From assembly GCA_965200155.1 (NCBI GenBank), contig CBDATR010000024.1, positions 1-64,000 of the forward strand: a stretch of DNA of 64,000 bases. Direction: 5' to 3'. Shown here in pieces: positions 3,303 to 59,493 of this stretch (within the stretch, counting starts at the first letter, position 1; every line of letters starts with the position of its first letter). The DNA comes from Nitrosopumilaceae archaeon (lineage in GTDB: Archaea; Thermoproteota; Nitrososphaeria; Nitrososphaerales; Nitrosopumilaceae). A program made the position numbers and the translations under genes. A model generated the notes under the pieces. The model saw only the letters and a list, made by a program, of their open reading frames with translations, was not told the origin of the DNA and made no database searches.

Positions 3303-4250
3303 TGGACCCCATAGAATTGAGAATAGATCTCAATGCACACCTTTTAGATTCAAGAGAGCATGGTTGACAAAAAGCACCAATGGAGTCGGGAAGAGAAGGT
3401 CTGGATTATTTTAGAGACGTTAGACTCGGCAGCAGTCACCGCAGAGATCTGCAGGCGGCATAACATATCACCGCGCACACACGTGGAGGGAGAGATTCCT
3501 AAAGGCCGGTTCTGAGGGATTGGACAGGAATGCAAGAACCCAAAACTCCGAGATGAAAAAGATGTTACAAGAGAACGATAATCTAAGTAGGTGAGCTAAC
3601 GCTTGCCAACAACACATTTAAAAAAACAATGGTGGAGAGGGACCAAACTGAAGGTCCTCAAGGAGATCAATGACACTACCGGGGTAGTTCGTGCACTGGA
3701 GCTCTGCGGGGTGTCCAGAAACAAGATGTACTACAAAAAGAAGCCAGAAAGGAAAGAGCGCAGACAGATAAAGAATGACAACACCACATGAACCCAGATA
3801 CTCAGTATAGCCCATAATCGCCCCTCCTATGGAACGCGCATGATGGTCGCCTAGCTTACACGGGACAATAACACACCCATAAACCGCAAGAGAATCCAGG
3901 TATGAGTTCATGTCTTCAGGAATCTTATGCACAAATGACATTAACTGTCGCGATCAGTTATGCGTAAATTTAGACGCAGGTGAACTCATACGAATCCAGA
4001 GACTATACCGTATCAAGGGCTGGATCACGCAAAAAAAAAGACCAAATCGCAGATAATACAATCCAACAAGAGTCTCCCAAAGCCGACCGGCCCCGGCCAG
4101 TTCTGGGAGGCGGACATGTCAATGGTGCGGCCAGTCTGGCGGGTGTTACTGCTTCAACGTACTGGATGTCTACACAATGGAATGGCTATCATACCACTTT
4201 GAGAGAACGGCCATGACTGATCACGCCATCACGGCACTAACTGACACAAT
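3303..4250 (+). pseudogene. IS3-family transposase remnant (OrfA HTH plus integrase core), frameshifted, interrupted by a MITE and truncated by an IS5-type element
   Basis: MVDKKHQWSREEKVWIILE..AEICRRHNIS from 3360; downstream PSYGTRMM, FWEADM..CFNVLDVYT.EW; multiple stops and frameshifts. Confidence 0.7.
3900..3991 (+). mobile_element. 92-bp MITE copy
   Basis: TIR GTATGAGTTCA..TGAACTCATAC; TSD GAATCCAG. Confidence 0.95.
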
Positions 4251-4447
4251 AGACCTTATGCGCATGATTGACAGTAACATCCCATATTGCTTCAAACTGG
4301 GGTGTATTTTATGGCACACAATCAGTCAAGCATGAACAAACCAATGTTAATGGCATCTGCCAGCACTAACGTATGCCGTGATTGCAAATGTCATGTAGTG
4401 GGGTGACCGGATCTTGATGACGTATATCATGAGTGAGCTAAACGGTT

Positions 4448-4582
4448 GTATGAGTTCACGTCTTCCGGAATCTTATGCACAAATCACATTGTATGAGTTC
4501 ACGTCTTCCGGAATCTTATGCACAAATCACATTAACTGTCGCGATCAGTTATGCGCAAATTTAGACACAGGTGAACTCATAC
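4448..4582 (+). mobile_element. MITE with tandem-duplicated 43-bp left end (4448-4490 partial plus 4491-4582 full)
   Basis: TSD AAACGGTT outside the whole unit; empty site seen in the paralogue near 55425-55450. Confidence 0.9.
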
Positions 4583-4720
4583 AAACGGTTACCACAAAAC
4601 CCATTAATTTAGTGGATTTTCTGATGAGTAATATTCGAATTATAATATCACGGAAATTATGGACAGATATTTTTCAAGAATTTCTTGTATCTGGTATGCT
4701 TGTGCATAATGTGTAAATTA

Positions 4721-6433
4721 GTATGAGTTCACGTGTTTTGATCACATAATAAGATAGAATGCATCCCAGTTTTTTTAATTATAACTGCATTCTGACAGCA
4801 ACCTCGTTCATAACAGAAAGGCCCTGAGCCCTCCATGTCTGAACACATGATACGAATGTGGACATGCGGCGCATTGCCCTTTCGCCACCCTTTATCTGGC
4901 CACTAATCTTGCGGAATACCACTGCGTATCGCAAAGCCTGCTCCGCTGGATTGTTGGTGGGCTCTACACAGTCATATTCTAAGAATACGAACATGCATGG
5001 TATGGCCTTATTCAATCCTTTTACCTTCTTTTGTAGTTCAGTATCATCAACATCACAGTACTGATGCAGAATGGATTCTGCTCCTGTCTCAAATGAGTGT
5101 CGTAATTGCGCGGACGGCCCGCAGTGATTCAGGGATTCCCGTGCGCTCCGGAACAATCCTTTCAGGTCGTTGTCAAGTTTGATCCGGGCGTCCTGAGCAC
5201 CGGGATCAATATAGAATCCTGCATGTAATGCCTGGGTATCGCGCAATAAATGCGCCCAACACAACTGGTGCTTCCCACCGTCATCAAACCGGCGGTACAC
5301 AACGTACCTGTCTGTGACTATCGCCCCCTGGTAACCGTTCAGGTATTTGTTCACTACATTTGAACTCCTACTTTTGTCATATATGGACATCATCCACTCT
5401 TCGGCTCGCATCCCCCATACCCAGCCACGCCTACCCGCCAGTGATATACCAGTTTCGTCCACATGAATGCTGGGTGATTTTATTATATTCTCATGAATTG
5501 TTTCCATAAATGATTCACATGCATCGGCGGCCCTGGCAATTATGTTGTTTACTGCACCCACCGATATATTTAGGCCGAAGAGATCCCTCGAAATTACAGG
5601 TATGCGTTTTATTGGAATCTTTTCTGCGCGTAATGCGGTGATGGCACCACATAATTGAACCCCAAAACTACCACTCTTTGGGACGCCCGCTGCTGGGGCC
5701 AGTTGTTTTTTGCCGCACCCACACGCAGCCATTTCTATCACATGAAGGGTCTCCTCTATTTTGGCTGGTATTAATTCCGTTATGTGTCGTTGTTTCCAAC
5801 CAATTTTTGTCATTATATTGCCGCACTCACATATTGGTGTGTACTCAAAGGTGTGATGCACTACTCTGCCGGGGTTGTGGGAACGGGAAACCCCCTTGTG
5901 TCCCTTTTGAGCGCCAGCCTTTTTGGCTGATTTCGTACTGGCTTCTTTCTGTTGCTTATTATCTCCCTGTTTTCGCTTCTGCTCCTCCTGTTTTCGCTTC
6001 TTGTACTGGAGGGATTGAAAGGATGGTGGCGAGTGAGCATTCTCATAATATTTAAGTCGCGTTGTGAGTACCGCAATTTTCCTGTCTTTTTCTTCTAATT
6101 TCTCATTCAATTCACTTACATAATTCCTAATAATTTGGAAATCTTGTGTGAGATTTCGTATTTCTTTTGTGGTGTGTGACGTATGTGCTTCCAATACTCT
6201 CACACGTTCCTTGTAATGTGCAAGATCTTTCTCGGTAGACGCAAGGGTATCCTGAAGAAGTTTATTTTCCAGTTCCAATTCCTTATAGGACCGGCGTCTT
6301 CTCATTAGATTCTTATTGCAAATTTGGTATTTAAGTAAAATATTACCATACCAATCTATATCTTAGTGAATGATCAAAACACGTGAACTCATACCTATAT
6401 CTTAGTGAATGATCAAAACACGTGAACTCATAC
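4721..6433 (-). mobile_element. Intact single-ORF IS66-family element (ISBst12-like), probable autonomous partner of the MITE
   Basis: TIR GTATGAGTTCACGTGTTTTGATCA at both ends, 8-bp TSD GTAAATTA, 39-bp tandem duplication of the left end (6395-6433). Confidence 0.92.
4779..6305 (-). CDS. IS66 family DDE transposase (TnpC-like)
   Basis: Coiled coil, SPPS, GAQKGHKG, CxCG..CxCG zinc finger, IHVDETG, TDRYVVY, QLCWAHLLRD, PTNNPAEQALR. Confidence 0.92.
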   Translation of the reverse strand: MRRRRSYKELELENKLLQDTLASTEKDLAHYKERVRVLEAHTSHTTKEIRNLTQDFQIIRNYVSELNEKLEEKDRKIAVLTTRLKYYENAHSPPSFQSLQYKKRKQEEQKRKQGDNKQQKEASTKSAKKAGAQKGHKGVSRSHNPGRVVHHTFEYTPICECGNIMTKIGWKQRHITELIPAKIEETLHVIEMAACGCGKKQLAPAAGVPKSGSFGVQLCGAITALRAEKIPIKRIPVISRDLFGLNISVGAVNNIIARAADACESFMETIHENIIKSPSIHVDETGISLAGRRGWVWGMRAEEWMMSIYDKSRSSNVVNKYLNGYQGAIVTDRYVVYRRFDDGGKHQLCWAHLLRDTQALHAGFYIDPGAQDARIKLDNDLKGLFRSARESLNHCGPSAQLRHSFETGAESILHQYCDVDDTELQKKVKGLNKAIPCMFVFLEYDCVEPTNNPAEQALRYAVVFRKISGQIKGGERAMRRMSTFVSCVQTWRAQGLSVMNEVAVRMQL

Positions 6434-7383
6434 GTAAATTATGCAACCCGGATACTACGAGTAGATCTTCCCTGAATTCCTCACGACTGCCATCATATAC
6501 CTGACTTAATCTACGATATACCTTTAGCATTCGAATTACATGCTCGATTAATGTGCGCCTTTTTGATACATATTGGTTGTATTTCCTTTCAGTGTTAGTG
6601 AGTGATTCCCTACCCCTGTATGGAATTATGACCTTTGCGCCGGGTAGAAAGTCTTTCATTCCCTGGTATCCTGCATCTGCTATTACTGTTATTTTATCGG
6701 ATGGTGGCGTGGTTGATTCTTTTAGGGACTTGCCCCATTTGCCGCCAAGGGGAATATCATTCTTGAATATGCCATAATCGTGTCTTTTTCCCTCATATAC
6801 TCCACTGACGTGAATTATCAGTCTTGTTTGATGTTATCTGTACGTTATACGTGTGGGTTTTTTGTTTACCAGAGTACATTGCCTCCTGATTTTTTTCAGG
6901 ACGTTGTACGCGTACATGTGTCCCGTCAGTCTTTATCTCCCCTCCGGCTCGGCCTGGAACAATTTCCTTAAAGTCCGATGCTGACTTGATTTGTGATATT
7001 GCTTTTGCAACGGTATCGGCCGTTGGGAGTATCTTGATCAGTCCCTGCTTTGTAAACTGGATGTAACGGCATATGTTTGACTGGTTTATCTTGAGTATTG
7101 CAGCAAGAAGCTCCTGCTTTGTGTTGCAGCGCAGGCGTATCAGTGTAACTAAGAGTACATGCCTGACCGGAAATTTGTTCACATGGCCGCGATCATTTGT
7201 AAGTTCTAAGAATCGCCGTGCATCATCGCCTTCCAGGGACTCTACGTATTCTGTGAATCTGATTAGTATCCATTTGAACTCTTCCGGGGTGCATCCGGTC
7301 AGGGAATGAAGCTGATCCTTGCGTTCTATGATGTCATCAAGATTTGGAACGAGGGCATTCTTTGTGAGCTTCAAGTTTGCCAC
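6434..7383 (-). pseudogene. IS5/ISL2-type transposase, frameshifted near 6823 and interrupted by IS66
   Basis: SLTG, HTH region, TDGT...YSGK, ADAGYQG, RTLIEHVI; lacks 5 bp present in the paralogue at about 55950. Confidence 0.8.
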
Positions 7384-11081: not shown

Positions 11082-14000
11082 CTAGGGAATAGGCGCCTTG
11101 TAGTACTTGTCCAGGCCGGTTGGTTCTGTCTTGATATCATCCATCTTGAATTCAGTTGGGAGATTAGCTATGATCCTATCGGATTCTAGACCGACATGTA
11201 CTAGTCGTTCTAGCATGGCTCGGATCTGTTCTCCTGTAAAGACCCGGAATGGGTACCTATCTATCCCACTCTTTGCCTTCTTTGGTATGAAGGTTAACCA
11301 CCCTACAGGTGTGCGGCCATTCACTTTGTAATTGATTAATGGTATGTTATTGTATATCTTTTGGCCGTCTATTATGATGGTTGACGGATCCGGTTTGTCT
11401 TTGGGGCCCGGGGAACCGGTTCTATTTGGTTTCTTACCGAATCTAATCGTTCTTGGGTGATCAGGTATGGAGTGAAGCGGCTCACCCAAGTCATAACGTG
11501 GGCATGTCTCATAGTTCAGGTGTAAGTCAGCTAGTTCTCGGCCTGCTCTCATGATTCCATGGAAGTCAGGCGCCATGGGAATATTCGACAATCCTCTAAC
11601 AAGGAATGCTTGATACTTGGAACGATAACCACTATGATGTAGGATGCCATAGGTATAGTAGAATATGTCCTCTTTAGTTATGGAGTCATCATTATATCGT
11701 TTCTGGTATAGTTCCAGGGAATAGTCGGTGATGTTATCCTTTTGCTTCATCACCTCCGGTGACTGTGTGAACATGGGGAATACCTGCCCGTGATGCACCA
11801 CTTCCAGATCCGGTGCTATTCCCGTTATGAATACTGAGAATTCACCCTTGATCTTGTCCGGGACTATTATCGCCAGGTTCTTGATGGCTGACTGGCTGAC
11901 TGGCTGACTGGCTGACTGGCTGACTGGCTACCTACCACATGTCTATTCTTGTCCTTTTGTTTCTTGACTCTCATGGGAAAGCATTGGGATGCCTCGTGGA
12001 TGTGAAGGTCAGGCGTGATATCCGTGACAAACGTAGAGAACTCACCCTTTATTTTATCCGGCACCATAATAGAATGATTCTTGGAGTCGGGGTGTGGGTA
12101 GAATGAGGGGATATTAGAGGGTGTGGATACCATTACTTCATAGTCTGCATATAGATACTGTTTCAGGAATGGTCTATACAGTGCTGTCCTGATCTTTGTT
12201 TTATTGAACCTGGGTTTGCTTGGCGCCATCTTTTTTAGATCTCGCGTCATCTCTTTGGACCATGCAACATATTTTACATCTTTGTCAAAATCATCCAGAT
12301 CCTGCACAGCACAATGTTCTATGGTTCTTCTCATATTCTCTTCCAGGTCTTGGGGCGATGCGTTGTATACCCAATCATCTCTACGTGTTGTCAACCCCAT
12401 AGAATACATTACAAACATTACATCATTGGTCTTACCACGCTTTCCCTCTTTACTTCCCATTGAAGTCATGGAATCCCACTCATCACTGGATTCACCCCGC
12501 TGATCCAGCCAGTCGTGATAACGGTCTGGTGTTATAATCTGCCAGTCTTGTATTCCGGCGATGGAGCCGTATTCTTTTATCTTTTCTAGTTTCTTATCTC
12601 TGTCCAGATAATCACCAATGTCGTGGTAGTGGATGGTGCAAGATTGTTTGGCCGGGTTCTTGACTAGTATGGTTATAGCGGTGCCCACAGTTGAGCCACT
12701 CCCAAATATCTTGCCGCCCTCTCGTCTCCAATCCTGTTTACCCTTTACATCACCTCGTAAATTGAAACAGTAGACATCCGTGAACTCCATTCCAAGACAG
12801 GCGCGTATACCAGCTTCACTATTCCCAGTGATATATGCGGATGGTGTGATTAAACCGATAACCCCGCAATCACCAATTCTATCAGATGCCCAACGAATAG
12901 CCTTGATGTATGAGTTATTTGGTTTCAGTATGGCTCCCTTGAAGCCAACGTTACGCGCCTTACTCGTATAGGTGTTCTTTATGCGAGTCTCAAGTTTAGA
13001 GTGGGAATCATTCTTGTTATCATCACTAGCTGTCTCCTGCCCACTAGAGTATGGTGGATTACCTATAATGATATTTACACAATCCATGTTCTGCCGTTTC
13101 ACCCTAGTCATGGCTTCCTCCAGGGAATCATCTGTAATCTTGATCTGCTTCTTACGCTGTTCGGCATCCAGCCTGTATGAGGGGTGCTGTGTGAATGTAT
13201 CTGTGTATGATATCCCGCCAAACGGAACATACTCCCCGCTCTTTTTCTGATATGATGCCTCAATATTGGACATGGCAACATAGAATGCCGGCAACATTAT
13301 TTCATTCGCGTAAATATCATTCTGGTACTTGTCAGGTAGTGCATCATCACTGATCATTCCTCGCTCTATTAACTGGGCAAGGAATATCCCGGTACCGGTG
13401 AACGGGTCCAGCACCTTTACTGCTCTATCATTGAATGTCTTTCCAAACTCCGATTCTAGTACATGTCTAACTGATTCCAGTATGAAGTTAACGATTTCAA
13501 CTGGTGTGTGTACGATTCCATGTTTGTCCGCGGACTTTTTATCCGAGCCAATGAAGAATGCGTCATATATGGCGCGCAGGAAATCCTGCTTGGCATCCGG
13601 CTCCTTGAATAGTTCAATGTCTGCCTGTATACCAGTATAGAATGCCTCGAACTGTTCTAGTTGTCCCTGTATGTTTAATCGTTGCATGGTATTATCGAAT
13701 GCAGATGCCACCGGGTTAGCATTCTTGGGGAACATTACATTGAATACTCTGGACATTACAGCATGCTGTGATAATGCACGAATGGTCTGCTCATATGTCA
13801 ACGTGAATCCGACTATATGTTTCAGGTTCTCGTGTAATTGTTTAATGATGGGCGCAGTTTCCGGCTCAATTTTGATTCGCTGTTTCAGTTTGGTCTCTAT
13901 TATGACGGCTTGCTCCCCTAGTCGCTTGCCCATGTTGGCGTGGTAACTGGCATCGCCAAGACTCAGTATGACATTCTGTACATCCTTTAACAACTTGTCA

Positions 14001-16078: not shown

Positions 16079-16153
16079 CCTAGTATATTGTATTGGCTGA
16101 GCGACTCTTCAATAGTACGAAAAGTAAGTCCGCTTAGGATCCGGCGTACAGCT

Positions 16154-16272
16154 GTATGAGTTCACGTCTTGGAACCGGTTCCAATCTTGTGCACAAAAGA
16201 ACCGGTTACTCTTTAACTGTCGCGATCAGTTATAGAATGACCCGTTCCATTTAGACACAGGTGAACTCATAC
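16154..16272 (+). mobile_element. MITE copy (119 bp) carrying three palindromic replacement scars
   Basis: Matches the consensus except at 16171-16182, 16198-16212 and 16234-16248; no TSD. Confidence 0.9.
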
Positions 16273-16357: not shown

Positions 16358-16449
16358 GTATGAGTTCACGTCTTCCGGAATCTTATGCATAAATCACATT
16401 AACTGTCGCGATCAGTTGTGCGTAAATTTAGACACAGGTGAACTCATAC
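16358..16449 (+). mobile_element. 92-bp MITE copy
   Basis: Consensus match; no TSD; followed by an orphan IS5-type end at about 16455-16519. Confidence 0.9.
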
Positions 16450-44215: not shown

Positions 44216-45505
44216 GTATGAGTTCACGTGTTTTGATCATTCACTAAGATATAGGTATGAGTTCACGTGTTTTGATCATTCACTAAGATATAGATTGGTA
44301 TGGCAATATTTTACTTAAATACCAAATTTGCAATAAGAATCTAATGAGAAGACGCCGGTCCTATAAGGAATTGGAACTGGAAAATAAACTTCTTCAGGAT
44401 ACCCTTGCGTCTACCGAGAAAGATCTTGCACATTACAAGGAACGTGTGAGAGTATTGGAAGCATATGTGTCCCGCACCACAAAAGAAATACGAAATCTCA
44501 CACAAGATTTCCAAATTATTAGGAATTATGTAAATGAATTGAATGAGAAATTAGAAGAAAAACAGGGGAAAATTGCGGTACTCACAACGCGACTTAAATA
44601 TTATGAGAATGCTCACTCGCCACCATCCCTTCAATCCCTCCAGTACAAGAAGCGAAAACAGGGAGATAATAAGCAACAGAAAGAAGCCAGTACTAAATCA
44701 GCCAAAAAGGCTGGCGCTCAAAAGGGACACAAGGGGGTTTCCCGTTCCCACAACCCCGGCAGAGTAGTGCATCACACCTTTGAGTACACACCAATATGTG
44801 AGTGCGGCAATATGATGACAAAAATTGGTTGGAAACAACGACACATAACGGAATTAATACCAGCCAAAATAGAGGAGACCCTTCATGTGATAGAAATGGC
44901 TGCGTGTGGGTGCGGCAAAAAACAACTGGCCCCAGCAGCGGGCGTCCCAAAGAGTGGTAGTTTTGGGGTTCAATTATGCGGTGCCATCACTGCATTGCGT
45001 GCGGAAAAGATTCCAATAAAACGCATACCTGTAATTTCGAAGGATCTCTTCGGCCTGAATATATCTGTGGGTGCGGTAAACAACATAATTGCCAGTATGA
45101 GTTCACCTGTGTCTAAATTTACGCATAACTGATCGCGACAGTTAATGTGATTTGTACATAAGATTCTGGAAGACGTGAACTCATACTACTAAACTGCAAA
45201 AGAAGGTAAAAGGATTGAATAAGGCCATACCAGGCATGTTCGTATTCCTAGAATATGACAGTGTGGAGCCCACCAACAATCCAGCGGAGCAGTGGAACCG
45301 GTTCTGATACGCAGTGGTATTCCGCAAGATTAGTGGCCAGATAAAGGGTGGTGAAAGGGCCATGCGCCGCATGTCCATATGTGTTCAGACATGGAGGGCT
45401 CAGGGCCTTTCTGTAATGAACGAGGTTGCTGCCAGAATGTAATTATAATTAAAAAACTAGGATGTATTCTATCTTATTATATGATCAAAACACGTGAACT
45501 CATAT
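44216..45505 (+). mobile_element. IS66 copy 2, with a 490-bp internal deletion at a MITE
   Basis: Same TIRs and duplicated 39-bp left end as 4721-6433; TSD GATATTTT; transposase from 44344 truncated. Confidence 0.92.
45095..45186 (-). mobile_element. 92-bp MITE at a deletion junction
   Basis: No TSD; flanks correspond to about 5534 and 5043 of the intact copy. Confidence 0.92.
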
Positions 45506-54584: not shown

Positions 54585-54597
54585 CTACGTTAATTGT

Positions 54598-55247
54598 GTA
54601 TGAGTTCACGTGTTTTGATCATATAATAAGATAGAATACATCCTAGTTTTTTAATTATAATTGCATTCTGGCAGCAACCTCGTTCATTACAGAAAGGCCC
54701 TGAGCCCTCCATGTCCGAACACATATGGACATGCGGCGCATGGCCCTTTCACCACCCTTTATCTGGCCACTAATCTTGCGGAATACCACCGCGTATCGCA
54801 GAGTCTGCTCCGCTGGATTGTTGGTGGGCTCCACACTGTCATATTCTAGGAATACGAACATGCCTGGTATGGCCTTATTCAATCCTTTTGTATGAGTTCA
54901 CCTGTGTCTAAATTTACGCACAACTGATCGCGACAGTTAGTGTGATTTGTGCACAAGATTCCGGAAGACGTTAACTCATACATCCTTTTACCTTCTTTTG
55001 CGTATGAGTTCACGTGTTTTGATCATTCACTAAGATATAGATTGGTATGACAATATTTTGCTTAAATACCAAATTTGTGATAAGAATCTAATGAGAAGAC
55101 GCCTGTCCTATAAGGAATTGGAACTGAAAAATAAGCTTCTTCAGGATACCCTTGCGTCTACCAAGAAAGAACTTGCACATTACAAGGCAGGGGCCATGGG
55201 CCGCCTTGTCCTACGTCTTGCGGCTACCGATAAAGATCTTGCACATT
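54598..55247. mobile_element. Rearranged IS66 remnants: right end 54598-55001 (minus) fused to a left end 55002-55247 (plus)
   Basis: Both begin GTATGAGTTCACGTGTTTTGATCA; C-terminal PTNNPAEQ fragment and N-terminal MRRRLSYKELE fragment. Confidence 0.85.
54890..54981 (-). mobile_element. 92-bp MITE copy
   Basis: TSD ATCCTTTT. Confidence 0.95.
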
Positions 55248-56272
55248 ATACCTTATGCGCATGATTGACAATAACAGCCCATGTTGCTTCAAACTGGGGT
55301 GTATTTTATGGCACACAATCAGTCAAGCATGAACAATGTGAATGGCACCTGCCAGCACTAACGTATGCCGTGATTGCAAATGTCATGTAGTGGGGTGACC
55401 GGATCTTGATGACGTATATCATGAGTGAGCTAAATGGTTACCACAAAACCCATTAATTTAGTGGATTTTCTGATGAGTAATATTCGAATTATAATAACAC
55501 GGAAATTATGGACAGATATTTTTCAAAAATTTCTTGTATCTGGTATGCTTGTGCATAATGTGTAAATTATGCAACCCGGATACTACGAGTAGATCTTCCC
55601 GGAATTCCTCACGACTACCATCATATACCTGACTTAATCTACGATATACCTTTAGCATTCGAATTACATTCTCGATTAATATGCGCCTTTTTGATACATA
55701 TTGGCTGTATTTCCTTTCAGTTTTAGTGAGTGATTCCCTACCCCTGTATGGAATTATGACCTTTGCGCCGGGTAGGAAGTCTTTCATCCCCTGGTATCCT
55801 GCATCTGCTATTACTGTTATCTTATCGGATGGTGGCGTGGTTGATTCTTTTAGGGACTTGCCCCATTTGCCGCCAAGGGGAATATCATTCTTGAATATGC
55901 CATAATCGTGTCTTTTTCCCTCATATACTCCACTTACGTGAATTATCAGTCTTTTCTTGTTTGATGTTATCTGTACGTTATACGTGTGGGTTTTTTGTTT
56001 ACCAGAGTACATGTATGAGTTCACCTGTGTCTAAATTTACGCATAACTGATCGCGACAGTTAATGTGATTTGTGCATAAGATTCCAGAAGACGTGAACTC
56101 ATACGAGTACATTGCCTCCTGATTTTTTTCAGGACGTTGTACGCGTACATGTGTCCCGTCAGTCTTTATCTCCCCTCCGGCTCGACCGGGAACAATTTCC
56201 TTAAAGTCGGGTGTTGACTTGATTTGTGATATTGCTTTTGCAACGGTATCGGCCGTTGGAAGTATCTTGATC
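55248..56272 (-). mobile_element. Second copy of the IS5/ISL2-type element, 5' truncated at a MITE
   Basis: Near-identical to 4251-4720 plus 6434-7040; transposase C-terminus at 55506-56012. Confidence 0.85.
56013..56104 (-). mobile_element. 92-bp MITE copy
   Basis: TSD GAGTACAT. Confidence 0.95.
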
Positions 56273-56546: not shown

Positions 56547-56933
56547 ATGAGTACTGAAACAATGAGCATATTAGCTATTGTAAAAGAATTAGCACAAGAG
56601 TTAGAACTGCTTAAGCAAATAGTGAATAAAAATGAGGCCGAAAAATCCACGCCAAAGCGACGTGGAAGACCGCCAAAATCCCAGACTGCTGCCGCCGCTG
56701 ATACTACTGTACCAAAGCGACGTGGAAGACCGCCAAAATCCCAGACTGCTGCCGCCGCTGATACTACTGTACCAAAGCGACGTGGAAGACCGCCAAAATC
56801 CCAGACTGCTGCCGCCGCTGATACTACTGTACCAAAGCGACGTGGAAGACCGCCAAAATCCCAGACTGCTGCCGCCGCTGATACTACTGTACCAAAGCGA
56901 CGTGGAAGACCGCCAAAATCCCAGACTGCGTGA
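56547..56933 (+). CDS. HMGA-like multi-AT-hook DNA-binding protein with N-terminal coiled coil
   Basis: Five PKRRGRPPK AT-hooks; start could be 56547 or 56562. Confidence 0.8.
   Translation: MSTETMSILAIVKELAQELELLKQIVNKNEAEKSTPKRRGRPPKSQTAAAADTTVPKRRGRPPKSQTAAAADTTVPKRRGRPPKSQTAAAADTTVPKRRGRPPKSQTAAAADTTVPKRRGRPPKSQTA
56652..56929 (+). repeat. Perfect 60-bp tandem repeat, about 4.6 copies
   Basis: Unit CCAAAGCGACGTGGAAGACCGCCAAAATCCCAGACTGCTGCCGCCGCTGATACTACTGTA. Confidence 0.97.
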
Positions 56934-57093
56934 ATTGTACCTGTAAGATGTGCACTGTTTTTTAGCATAAAGTCATAGACTATGAACATTATGCAAATAG
57001 GTCCACAAAGCGATCACGAAAAAATTCATCCCAACGTGGTTCTTCTAGTATATTTGTACAATCTCTCATACTTACGCGCACACTTGTTGTGTA

Positions 57094-59046: not shown

Positions 59047-59080
59047 ATTTGGGAACTGCGTTATTACTAGCTCCAATAAC

Positions 59081-59493
59081 GTATGAGTTCACGTCTTCCG
59101 GAATCTTATGCACAAATCACATTAACTGTCACGATCAGTTATGCGTAAATTTAGACACAGGTGAACTCATACGAGCGGAAAGCTAAGGAAGGGGAGCAGA
59201 CAAGTACTGGATCCACAAGAAAGGCTGACAGTCAGGCGAGACACAAGGGCGTCTCCCGTAAACGTAACCCCGATAGAATTACGCATCACATGAGGGCGAT
59301 AACCTGGTATGCGACTGCAGTAAAATAATGACAGTAATTGGTATAAAATCGCGATACGTGACGCATTTAATACCGGCCAGGACAGGATATTCGTATGAGT
59401 TCACGTCTTCCGGAATCTTATGCACAAATCACATTAACTAGAACAACCTGTTCCATCAGTTATGTGTAAATTTAGACACAGGTGAACTCACAC
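59081..59493 (+). mobile_element. MITE-bounded composite unit (MITE 59081-59172, 220-bp passenger, scarred MITE 59393-59493)
   Basis: TSD CCAATAAC flanks the outer ends only; the passenger resembles an IS66 transposase (HKGVSRKRNPDRITHH). Confidence 0.85.

What the first reader, a model, noticed from the sequence alone, without database searches (positions are those of the whole stretch)
16154..16272. Stereotyped palindromic 'scars' (RGA...TCY, 12-15 bp) replacing 4-7 bp of DNA: candidate undescribed break-healing or footprinting system
Seen: against the 92-bp MITE consensus this copy has three replacements: CCGG to GGAACCGGTTCC (16171-16182), TCACA to AGAACCGGTTACTCT (16198-16212) and GCGTAA to AGAATGACCCGTTCC (16234-16248). 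The same kind of event is verifiable at 45294 and 59440. Read inward from each side, all ten arms begin RGA (nine RGAA) and meet at a CC/GG-rich junction. Insert lengths are 12 or 15, there is no target duplication, target bases are lost, the replaced sequences share no motif, and most inserts are not copies of their flanks. Knowledge: DDE insertion gives duplications and hairpin-type excision footprints copy the flank, so neither fits. Inference: both ends of a double-strand break are extended with a fixed RGAAC(C)GG-like oligo (by a primase-polymerase, reverse transcriptase or sequence-biased terminal transferase) and rejoined through the self-complementary CC/GG. Alternatively this is the stub left by an unknown element. 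Three hits in one copy while 23 copies have none suggests a clustered event. No candidate enzyme is identifiable in this window.
Basis: partly seen in the sequence, partly recalled or inferred. Interest (0 to 1): 0.92.

Follow-up and report, generated by a model that had tools for sequence, protein, structure and literature searches.

The report
Stereotyped palindrome patches in mobile elements
Short palindromes of one sequence family have repeatedly overwritten a few bases at small hairpin tips inside this archaeon's jumping genes; the pattern is real and unusual, but it looks more like copying between repeats than a new break-healing enzyme.

Summary
The 92-bp element is an IS66-type MITE with about 600 copies. 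146 of 564 parsed copies carry replacements of 4-7 bp by 12-20 bp palindromes that share one 8-bp core (window 16173-16180). Raw-data contigs from three studies hold them.

The copy at 16154-16272 is not a clustered hit. It is one of five identical members of a MITE subfamily that gained its patches stepwise.

The same kind of patch also sits in an IS66 transposase gene (window 45293-45305), an IS1595 transposase gene, a hairpin of a TnpB element, and probably a Type ISP gene family (window 11412-11423). That makes at least 12 events, all inside repeated or mobile DNA. In low-copy DNA the core occurs at chance level. Among 40 other genomes searched, 39 have 0-3 copies of the 12-mer pattern and one congener has 12.

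No Ku, Prim-Pol, archaeal reverse transcriptase, Y1 transposase or NucS was found.

Best reading (about 0.4): template switching or ectopic conversion at hairpin tips copies palindromes between mobile elements, and transposition then amplifies them. It does not explain the strict sequence specificity. A dedicated writer remains possible (about 0.2).

The parts
16154..16272 (+). 119-bp copy of the IS66-type MITE, subfamily AB'E (three patches). It has no target duplication of its own, and its flanks are shared in part with other copies.
   Evidence: 5 identical copies
16171..16182 (.). Patch A: a 12-bp perfect palindrome replacing the 4 central bp of a native 8-bp palindrome of the MITE (consensus positions 18-21).
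   Evidence: 8 copies, plus 2 with a further nested 12-mer
16198..16212 (.). Patch B': a 15-bp form of patch B (consensus positions 37-41 replaced). Only the right arm carries a 3-nt addition. In the 18-bp form B'' the left arm mirrors it.
   Evidence: B 43 exact plus 5 one-change variants; B' 5; B'' 4
16234..16248 (.). Patch E: a 15-bp imperfect palindrome replacing consensus positions 63-68. In the predicted single-strand fold it pairs with patch B'.
   Evidence: (15 copies)
16358..16449 (+). Neighbouring 92-bp MITE copy without any patch; the reference state.
59393..59493 (+). 101-bp MITE copy of subfamily D.
59440..59454 (.). Patch D: a 15-bp imperfect palindrome replacing the 6-bp apical loop of the MITE hairpin (consensus positions 48-53). 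This is the most successful patch.
   Evidence: (69 copies at 64 loci, 43 with target duplication)
45293..45305 (.). 13-bp patch replacing 7 bp in the IS66-family transposase gene, just after the conserved N-N-x-A-E motif. It creates a stop codon 6 codons later.
   Evidence: (38 patched against 28 unpatched copies)
44344..45132 (+). N-terminal ORF of this IS66 copy (zf-IS66), interrupted by a MITE at about 45095-45186.
11412..11423 (.). 12-mer of the same family inside a Type_ISP_C domain ORF (11082-11801, minus strand). Diverged paralogues have 6 other bp here, so this is a probable in-frame event, less certain than the others.

Best explanation
The 'scars' are short hairpin-forming patches of one sequence family. 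They have an 8-bp self-complementary core and arms of three kinds, here called GG, AG and GT after their first two bases. Each overwrites the tip of a small pre-existing hairpin or palindrome inside a mobile-element copy.

I think most of them arise during replication or break repair. A 3' end stalls or breaks at a hairpin tip and switches template, through a few bases of microhomology, to another palindrome of the same family in a different element or elsewhere in the same element. It copies 10-16 nt and switches back, so a few target bases are lost and nothing is duplicated. The likely seed palindromes are native parts of other abundant elements in this genome: the TnpB element F2 and the F5/G family.

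A patched MITE or IS that stays mobile is then multiplied by the IS66 transposase. Ectopic gene conversion moves patches between copies.

Shown:
- the replacements, their direction and the order in which they accumulated;
- amplification by transposition;
- presence of each patch on several backbone haplotypes;
- arm-by-arm perfection (B' to B'');
- identity that extends beyond the palindrome between unrelated elements.

Inferred: the template-switch step itself, the donors of the first events, and the reason for the sequence specificity. That reason could be selection at the level of the element for a hairpin or a binding site.
For: 1. Location. The MITE folds as one long hairpin as single-stranded DNA (-16.4 kcal/mol, z -4.8).
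- Patches C and D replace its apical loop.
- Patch A replaces the centre of a native 8-bp palindrome.
- Patch B replaces a small loop in a bulge.
- The nested events A' and B'' replace the centres of older patches.
- In the TnpB element a 4-nt hairpin loop is replaced.
- In most events the native bases on either side continue the stem.

2. Stepwise history. The order is B, BE, ABE, AB'E, AB''E, A'B''E. In B' only one arm carries a 3-nt addition. In B'' the other arm is its mirror apart from one base. That is the classical outcome of quasipalindrome template switching.

3. Copying between palindromes.
- The inner 14 nt of A' equal those of B'', 27 bp away in the same element.
- MITE patch C and the IS1595 patch share 14 nt. 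The bases just outside the shared 12-mer (2 on one side, 3 on the other, offset by one extra base in the MITE) are native in both unpatched alleles.
- Families F3, F4 and F5 share one 16-mer, and in F5 the motif is native, since diverged relatives keep imperfect versions.
- Families G and F5 show palindromes being perfected by single substitutions.

4. Spread among copies.
- Patches B, C and D each occur on both major backbone haplotypes.
- The IS66 patch occurs both with and without a nearby MITE insertion: 25 and 4 patched copies, against 9 and 10 unpatched (read from the lengths of the open frames).

5. No sign of a general system.
- The core octamer in low-copy contexts was seen 38 times, against about 36 expected from composition (my arithmetic).
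- Ku, Prim-Pol, Y1_Tnp, NucS_C and C5 methylase gave 0 matches each.
- The only RVT_1 match lies in a Ty3/gypsy-like contig.

6. Patched MITEs are mobile. B sits at 43 loci, 30 with a target duplication; D sits at 64 loci, 43 with one.
Against: - In the primary events both arms are new, and neither is a copy of present-day flanks.
- The exact 12-mer of patch A occurs nowhere outside MITE copies, and neither do the 13-nt (or inner 11-nt) cores of D and E. These three therefore have no extant donor.
- Plain template switching should give varied inserts. Here at least 12 events give one core, three arm types combined freely, unit lengths of 12 or 15, and a steady loss of 4-7 target bases. That looks like a defined unit or a defined enzyme preference.
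- Site B has almost no homology to any donor.
- One small lineage (15 copies) collected six events while 418 copies have none. This suggests that a patch attracts further events.
- The microhomology matches could partly be chance. My rough estimate for the MITE-C/IS1595 pair is about 0.1 over all family pairs.
- The systematic search for the longest outside matches of each patch could not be run.
Confidence: 0.4

Rival explanations
1. A dedicated, undescribed activity writes a defined palindromic unit into breaks or hairpin tips. This is the first reader's model: both ends of a break are extended with the same short oligo and joined through the self-complementary centre. A variant would be a 12-bp self-complementary unit captured at the break. 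The breaks could come from a nuclease that attacks mobile elements, for example one of the roughly 20 TnpB loci, in which case patched copies would be cut-resistant alleles that spread by conversion.
For: - Uniform core, three arm types in all combinations (GG/GG, AG/AG, GT/AG, GT/GT, GG/AG, AG/GT), and unit lengths of 12 or 15.
- Steady loss of 4-7 bp and no duplication.
- A complete new 12-mer is nested in the centre of an older one (A', B'').
- 162 pattern matches in this genome, against 0-3 in 39 of the 40 other genomes and 12 in one congener.
- Patches sit on several backbones, as a homing-like drive would produce.
- There are many TnpB loci.
- Both transposase patches fall at the conserved N..E catalytic motif.
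Against: - No excess in low-copy DNA.
- No Ku, Prim-Pol, archaeal RT or NucS was found.
- None of 116 TnpB-element end flanks matched an interior MITE, IS66 or IS1595 site better than 12 of 16. The single 16 of 16 match belongs to a small derivative that abuts a MITE end and lacks the guide-RNA scaffold.
- Identity extends beyond the unit between families.
- One-armed and substitution-type intermediates exist.
Confidence: 0.2
2. The patch is itself a minimal mobile or homing palindrome, a REP-like nano-element moved by a hairpin-specific enzyme acting on single-stranded DNA. It prefers loops and copies itself into the same site of homologous repeats.
For: - Loop and tip targeting.
- The same patch at the same site on different backbones, and in a diverged IS66 relative.
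- In congener G008 a 12-mer of this family lies where about 5 of about 30 copies of a repeat end.
Against: - No Y1/HUH transposase was found.
- At 12 bp it is far below any known REP or MITE.
- There is no conserved tag outside the palindrome.
- Target bases are lost, which peel-and-paste insertion does not cause.
- There is no spread into low-copy DNA.
- Ordinary ectopic conversion among hundreds of copies can explain the shared sites.
Confidence: 0.12
3. The patches are stubs left by nearly precise excision of a larger element whose inverted ends begin with these arms. The deletion would occur between the two copies of the self-complementary core.
For: - The palindromic form.
- The core would be a direct repeat in both ends, which favours slippage across a hairpin, as in nearly precise excision of Tn10 (recalled, not checked in a paper here).
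Against: - A scan for such ends 40-8000 bp apart gave 53 pairs. The strong ones (at least 19 of 24 bases alike) were inverted pairs of already known repeat copies, and the weak ones (17 of 24) showed no terminal repeat worth the name. No element of its own was found.
- There is no target duplication, and target bases are lost.
- Nested and one-armed forms exist.
Confidence: 0.06
4. Assembly, adapter or sequencing artefact.
For: None beyond the adapter-like look of a short palindrome holding a restriction-type site.
Against: - Contigs from runs of three studies hold the patched copy without differences.
- Dozens of loci have their own target duplications.
- The patches sit inside subfamilies that have their own point mutations.
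Confidence: 0.01

Closest known systems
Quasipalindrome-associated template-switch mutations, and short-range template switching that creates and perfects hairpins (PMC8794818 and PMC7202029; I saw only the search listing and the start of each abstract)
   Same: One event replaces several bases, creates or perfects an inverted repeat, makes no duplication and sits at hairpins. The steps B' to B'', A to A' and the substitutions in families G and F5 fit directly.
   Different: Known events copy the complement of nearby sequence, so each product is local and unique. Here unrelated sites receive the same core and arms, and for patches A, D and E no donor exists in the present genome.
REP / REPIN elements and other small hairpin repeats (PMC3116915 and PMC3733652; search listing only)
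   Same: Short palindromic units in many copies, hairpin-forming, sometimes nested in other repeats.
   Different: REPs are 20-40 bp, carry a conserved tag, lie between genes, and go with a Y1 (RAYT) transposase. Here the unit is 12-15 bp, has no tag, lies only inside other mobile elements and genes, and no Y1 transposase was found.
Transposon excision footprints: P element, hAT, Tc1/mariner, and nearly precise excision of Tn10 (recalled, no paper read)
   Same: Short palindromic remnants at a former insertion site.
   Different: Footprints keep the target duplication and derive from the ends or flanks of a known element. Here target bases are lost and no parent element exists.
Highly iterated palindromes such as HIP1 of cyanobacteria (recalled)
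   Same: One short palindrome over-represented in one lineage.
   Different: HIP1 is spread through all DNA, genes included, mostly by substitution. Here the palindrome is at chance level outside repeats and arrives as an insertion-replacement.
IS66-family MITEs (ISBst12-like single-ORF IS66 partner)
   Same: The host element is an ordinary member: same ends as the IS66 copy, 8-bp duplication, partner transposase with DDE_Tnp_IS66.
   Different: Nothing unusual in the MITE itself. The unusual part is what has been written into it.

Membership tests
IS66-type MITE (host element) | Terminal inverted repeats shared with an autonomous IS66-family element | tested here: met
   The same 12-14 bp ends occur on the MITE and on the IS copies (families D2 and D11). 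The partner ORF matches DDE_Tnp_IS66 at E 6.4e-39.
IS66-type MITE (host element) | 8-bp target-site duplication | tested here: met
   Exact 8-bp duplication in 330 of 581 full-length copies.
Template-switch (quasipalindrome) mutation | The new bases are the reverse complement of a nearby stretch, so an imperfect inverted repeat becomes perfect | tested here: inconclusive
   Met for B' to B'' and for A to A' (14 nt identical to B''). Not met in the present context for the primary patches A, B, C, D and E. The donor may have been a neighbour at the time of the event, which cannot be seen now.
Template-switch (quasipalindrome) mutation | Replacement without target duplication, at a hairpin or inverted repeat | tested here: met
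Transposon insertion or excision footprint | Target duplication kept on both sides of the remnant | tested here: not met
   4-7 target bases are lost and none duplicated, at every event.
Transposon insertion or excision footprint | A parent element with the same termini exists | tested here: not met
   53 candidate end pairs were found. The strong ones were inverted copies of known repeats and the weak ones showed no terminal repeat. The assembly is 87.6% complete.
REP/RAYT or IS200/IS605-type hairpin element | Y1 (HUH) transposase in the genome | tested here: not met
   PF01797 gave 0 matches, while the control genomes rang. TnpB is present (20 matches), but the TnpB element has 24-bp inverted ends.
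REP/RAYT or IS200/IS605-type hairpin element | Unit of 20-40 bp with a conserved tag, mostly extragenic | tested here: not met
   The unit is 12-15 bp, has no tag, and lies inside MITEs, IS genes and one gene family.
   Ku 0, Prim-Pol 0. RVT_1 matched only a eukaryotic-type retroelement contig. LigD and terminal transferases were not searched.
   Core octamer in low-copy DNA: 38 seen, about 36 expected from composition (my arithmetic).
Highly iterated palindrome (HIP-like) | Excess of the palindrome in all kinds of DNA | tested here: not met
   Of 233 core copies, 194 fall in 16 repeat families and 39 are singletons.

The most novel reading that the evidence does not exclude
This sponge-associated archaeon has a lineage-specific process that recognises hairpin tips or breaks inside mobile elements and writes a defined 12-bp self-complementary unit there. 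Further rounds are aimed at the centre of earlier units. Patched copies then spread by conversion, for instance as cut-resistant alleles against an element-directed nuclease such as one of its many TnpB loci. That would be a new kind of sequence-specific DNA writing, or a record of an arms race between mobile elements.
Probability: 0.2. Interest if true: 0.85.

Novelty: new variant of a known kind. Interest (0 to 1): 0.6.

Why it matters
If the patches come from template switching between palindromes carried on different mobile elements, this genome is a very clear natural record of that process. It holds dozens of dated intermediates and shows how hairpins are created, perfected and passed between unrelated repeats, and how this disables transposase genes at their catalytic motif.

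If a specific activity writes the unit instead, it would be an undescribed way of editing DNA at hairpins or breaks, found in an archaeal group with few known repair pathways.

Either way, annotators should know that subfamilies of this MITE differ by these patches and not by ordinary indels.

Tried and rejected
- **Artefact.** Rejected by contigs from three studies.
- **Clustered single event.** Rejected.
- **Reverse direction (long form ancestral).** Rejected for three reasons. The unpatched state is the hub from which each patch is one step away. The old, diverged MITE copies have it. The unpatched IS66 and IS1595 genes keep conserved protein motifs that the patches destroy.
- **Target-duplication or flank-hairpin footprints.** I parsed the patches by hand against the local sequence and found no copy of local bases.
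- **Full-length parent element.** None found.
- **TnpB guide aimed at the patched sites.** Of 116 end flanks of the TnpB element, the best interior match was 12 of 16. The one perfect match is a small derivative that abuts a MITE end and lacks the scaffold.
- **Known RNA families** in the TnpB, F5 and G regions. None at E 0.1.
- **Pfam on four F5 ORFs.** Nothing.
- **MITE and TnpB-element DNA in relatives.** The MITE was found in 0 of 30 other genomes and the TnpB-element DNA in 0 of 9 congeners. These are samples, not proof of absence.
- **C5 methylase.** Searched because CCGG point variants at site A look like deamination. Not found.
- **RNA run X6.** It holds MITE pieces but cannot show transcription.
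- **Technical failures.** A fuzzy-regex search of the whole genome timed out and was replaced by BLAST.
- **Literature.** Three searches gave no description of such patches. I read only listings and the starts of abstracts. Supplementary files were not consulted.

Full report
**What is there.** The host element is a 92-bp MITE. nhmmer finds 620 hits in the 2.38-Mb, 51-contig assembly, of which 581 are full length. It makes an exact 8-bp target duplication in 330 of those 581 copies. It shares its ends with an IS whose 541-aa ORF matches DDE_Tnp_IS66 at E 6.4e-39. Two earlier notes of this scan said the same, and I re-tested it here. As single-stranded DNA the MITE folds into one long hairpin: -16.4 kcal/mol, z -4.8, and none of 200 shuffles folds as well.

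**The catalogue.** Full-length copies are not all 92 bp. 360 are, but about 128 have 98-101 bp, and smaller groups have 107/108, 116, 119, 122 or 130 bp. 564 of the 581 could be parsed at four sites. The 17 that failed are old, diverged copies, and they show the unpatched states.

| Patch | Consensus positions replaced | Result | Copies |
|---|---|---|---|
| A | 18-21 (4 bp) | 12-mer | 8 |
| A' | central 4 bp of patch A | a further 12-mer, 20 bp in all | 2 |
| B | 37-41 (5 bp) | 12-mer | 43 exact, plus 5 with one change |
| B' | same site | 15-mer | 5 |
| B'' | same site | 18-mer | 4 |
| C | 48/49-53 | 12/13-mer | 19 |
| D | 48-53 (6 bp) | 15-mer | 69 |
| E | 63-68 (6 bp) | 15-mer | 15 |

Copies by class: none 418, B 43, C 19, D 69, E 1, BE 4, ABE 1, AB'E 5, AB''E 2, A'B''E 2.

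- The 12-mers share one 8-bp self-complementary core (window 16173-16180).
- Their arms begin with one of three dinucleotides (AG, GG or GT), and these combine freely.
- D and E are 15-mers that match each other at 12 of 15 positions and have a mutated centre.

**The window's copy is a subfamily member.** The 119-bp form occurs five times, all identical. One copy has a perfect target duplication, and the flanks fall into three groups. Simpler forms exist at other loci, which gives the order B, BE, ABE, AB'E, AB''E, A'B''E. So the three patches were gained one after another in a lineage that kept transposing. They did not arise in one clustered event.

Patch-bearing MITEs are mobile. B sits at 43 different loci, 30 of them with a target duplication. 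D sits at 64 loci, 43 with one. The within-class diversity of B, C and D (2.2-2.4% pairwise) is close to that of unpatched copies (3.0%). The multi-patch forms are identical or nearly so, and therefore recent.

**Direction.** Three things show that the unpatched state is ancestral.
- It is the hub from which each single patch is one step away.
- The diverged old copies have it.
- In two protein genes the unpatched allele keeps a conserved motif that the patch destroys (next section).

**Beyond the MITE.** The core octamer occurs 233 times. 143 of these lie outside MITE hits, and most of those fall in a few repeat families (55 families, 39 of them singletons).

- *IS66 transposase gene.* A 13-bp patch replaces 7 bp right after the conserved N-N-x-A-E motif and brings a stop 6 codons later. 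38 copies are patched and 28 are not. Window 45293-45305 is one of the patched copies.
- *IS1595 transposase gene* (Pfam). A 12-mer replaces 7 bp at the H-T-N / G-I-E motif and shifts the frame. 2 copies are patched and 1 is not.
- *TnpB element F2.* This is about 1.29 kb with 24-bp inverted ends and 20 Cas12f1-like_TNB matches. The 4-nt loop of a G+C-rich hairpin downstream of the zinc ribbon is replaced by a 10-11-nt member of the same palindrome family. 2 of the 24 copies I could parse keep the short loop. A second motif of the family, just after the zinc ribbon, is constant in all parsed copies and so is native there.
- *Type ISP paralogues.* In a family carrying a Type_ISP_C domain, a 12-mer stands where diverged paralogues have 6 other bp (window 11412-11423). 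Because the alleles are only about 76% alike, I count this as probable only.

Together this makes at least 12 events.

**Restriction to repeats and to this genome.** In contexts with at most four BLAST hits the core occurs 38 times. Base composition predicts about 36 (my arithmetic from 47% G+C), so there is no excess in ordinary DNA. The degenerate 12-mer pattern is found:
- 162 times in this genome (reversed control 4);
- 0-3 times in 39 of the 40 other genomes searched;
- 12 times in congener G008 (control 3).

In G008 the 12-mer lies in a repeat of about 30 copies that resembles the 3' region of F2, at the place where about five copies end. The MITE was not found in 30 other genomes, and F2 DNA was not found in 9 congeners.

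**Reality in raw data.** Eleven public runs from three studies hold the 1-kb stretch.
- Contigs of run X1 cover 16154-16229 and 16200-16269 without a difference.
- A 230-nt contig of run X8, from another study, covers 16115-16272 with one other letter and no gap, then continues into the flank of another copy of the same subfamily.
- Runs X4 and X6 also show a form that lacks 3 letters at 16207, which matches the 12-bp form of patch B found at other loci.

**Where the patches fall.**
- C and D replace the apical loop of the MITE hairpin.
- A replaces the centre of a native 8-bp palindrome.
- B replaces a small loop within a bulge.
- A' and B'' replace the centres of older patches.
- The F2 event replaces a hairpin loop.
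- In most cases the native bases on both sides extend the new stem.
- E and the IS66 event lie 2-3 nt off the centre of small inverted repeats.

I did not compute a significance figure for this, because the events are few and the MITE is structured throughout.

**Signs of copying between palindromes.**
- B' has a 3-nt addition in one arm only. B'' has its mirror in the other arm, apart from one base.
- The same 3-nt addition is seen in A' and in one F2 hairpin variant.
- The inner 14 nt of A' equal those of B'', 27 bp away.
- MITE patch C and the IS1595 patch share 14 nt. The bases just outside the shared 12-mer (2 on one side, 3 on the other, offset by one extra base in the MITE) are native in both unpatched alleles, which is what microhomology-guided copying predicts.
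- Families F3, F4 and F5 share one 16-mer. F5 (about 27 copies of 1.3 kb) and its short relative G (82 spanning hits) carry imperfect versions in diverged members, so the motif is native there. Their copies show stepwise perfection by single substitutions.

**Signs of spread among copies.** The MITE has two major backbone haplotypes, 127 and 109 unpatched copies, with 30 and 22 recombinants. Each of B, C and D occurs on both: B 15 and 19, C 9 and 4, D 17 and 26, counting the third-marker variant with its parent type. The IS66 patch occurs both with and without a nearby MITE insertion. Conversion tracts shorter than about 33 bp, or repeated identical events, are needed to explain this.

**Enzymes.** In the 87.6%-complete assembly I found no match to Y1_Tnp, Ku, Prim-Pol, NucS_C or C5 DNA methylase. 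The only RVT_1 match lies on contig C50 among gag-knuckle, protease and RNase H ORFs of a Ty3/gypsy-like retroelement, most likely host DNA in the bin. No full-length element with these arms as ends was found. No end flank of the TnpB element points at an interior patched site.

**Reading.**
- I favour template switching or ectopic conversion at hairpin tips, seeded from native palindromes of other elements, followed by amplification and conversion (0.4).
- It accounts for the secondary steps and for the restriction to repeats.
- It does not account for the strict sameness of core, arms and lengths, nor for patches A, D and E, whose exact sequences occur nowhere else.
- Selection among element copies for a stable side hairpin or a binding site could add specificity, but that is untested.
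- A dedicated writer (0.2), a minimal mobile palindrome (0.12) and a stub of a lost element (0.06) remain.

**Literature.** Searches returned work on template-switch hairpin creation, on REPs and REPINs, and on mobile elements of Thaumarchaeota, but nothing describing such patches. I saw only listings and the starts of abstracts.

Noticed in passing
G000 contig C50:20800-24100 (loci L039, L040): ORFs with a gag zinc knuckle, protease, reverse transcriptase and RNase H of a Ty3/gypsy-like eukaryotic retroelement. This is probably host DNA binned with the archaeon, and it holds the only RVT_1 match in the assembly.
   Followed up: partly
flanks of 581 MITE copies genome-wide (for example window 59080-59172): The MITE prefers a symmetric target: an A/T-rich 8-bp duplication flanked by A-G-C-W on one side and W-G-C-T on the other.
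   Followed up: no
MITE consensus positions 18-21, all copies: Among point variants of the native CCGG, CTGG (9) and CCAG (7) dominate, which is the signature of 5-methylcytosine deamination. No C5 methylase gene was found.
   Followed up: partly
L028 (G000:C10:190900-192450) and about 20-35 other loci: A TnpB-only element of about 1.29 kb with 24-bp terminal inverted repeats. Many copies are degraded, and no Y1 transposase is present in the assembly. How it moves is open.
   Followed up: partly
G008 loci L011-L027: A congener has about 30 copies of a 200-380-bp structured repeat related to the 3' part of that TnpB element. A 12-mer of the same palindrome family marks the point where about five copies end. 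One copy lacks a 10-nt hairpin arm that the others have.
   Followed up: partly
G000:C10:386961-387429: Thirteen tandem 39-bp units, each containing the 8-bp core. The coding status was not examined.
   Followed up: no
window 4245-7039 and 54591-56272; window 56592-56951: A block of several hundred bp to 2.8 kb is duplicated at 94-100% identity within the window. There is also a tandem array with a 60-bp period.
   Followed up: no
window 45293-45305 and G000:C13:32603, C22:7312: Both transposase-gene patches (IS66 and IS1595) fall at the conserved N..E motif of the DDE catalytic domain and truncate or shift the protein there. Patched IS66 copies outnumber intact ones, 38 to 28.
   Followed up: partly
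window 28/61-type SNPs in MITE copies (for example window 16385 and 16418 in the copy at 16358-16449): The two common A/G polymorphisms of the MITE lie in the same hexamer context and are in strong linkage (127 and 109 copies against 30 and 22). Both changes keep a wobble pair in the fold.
   Followed up: no
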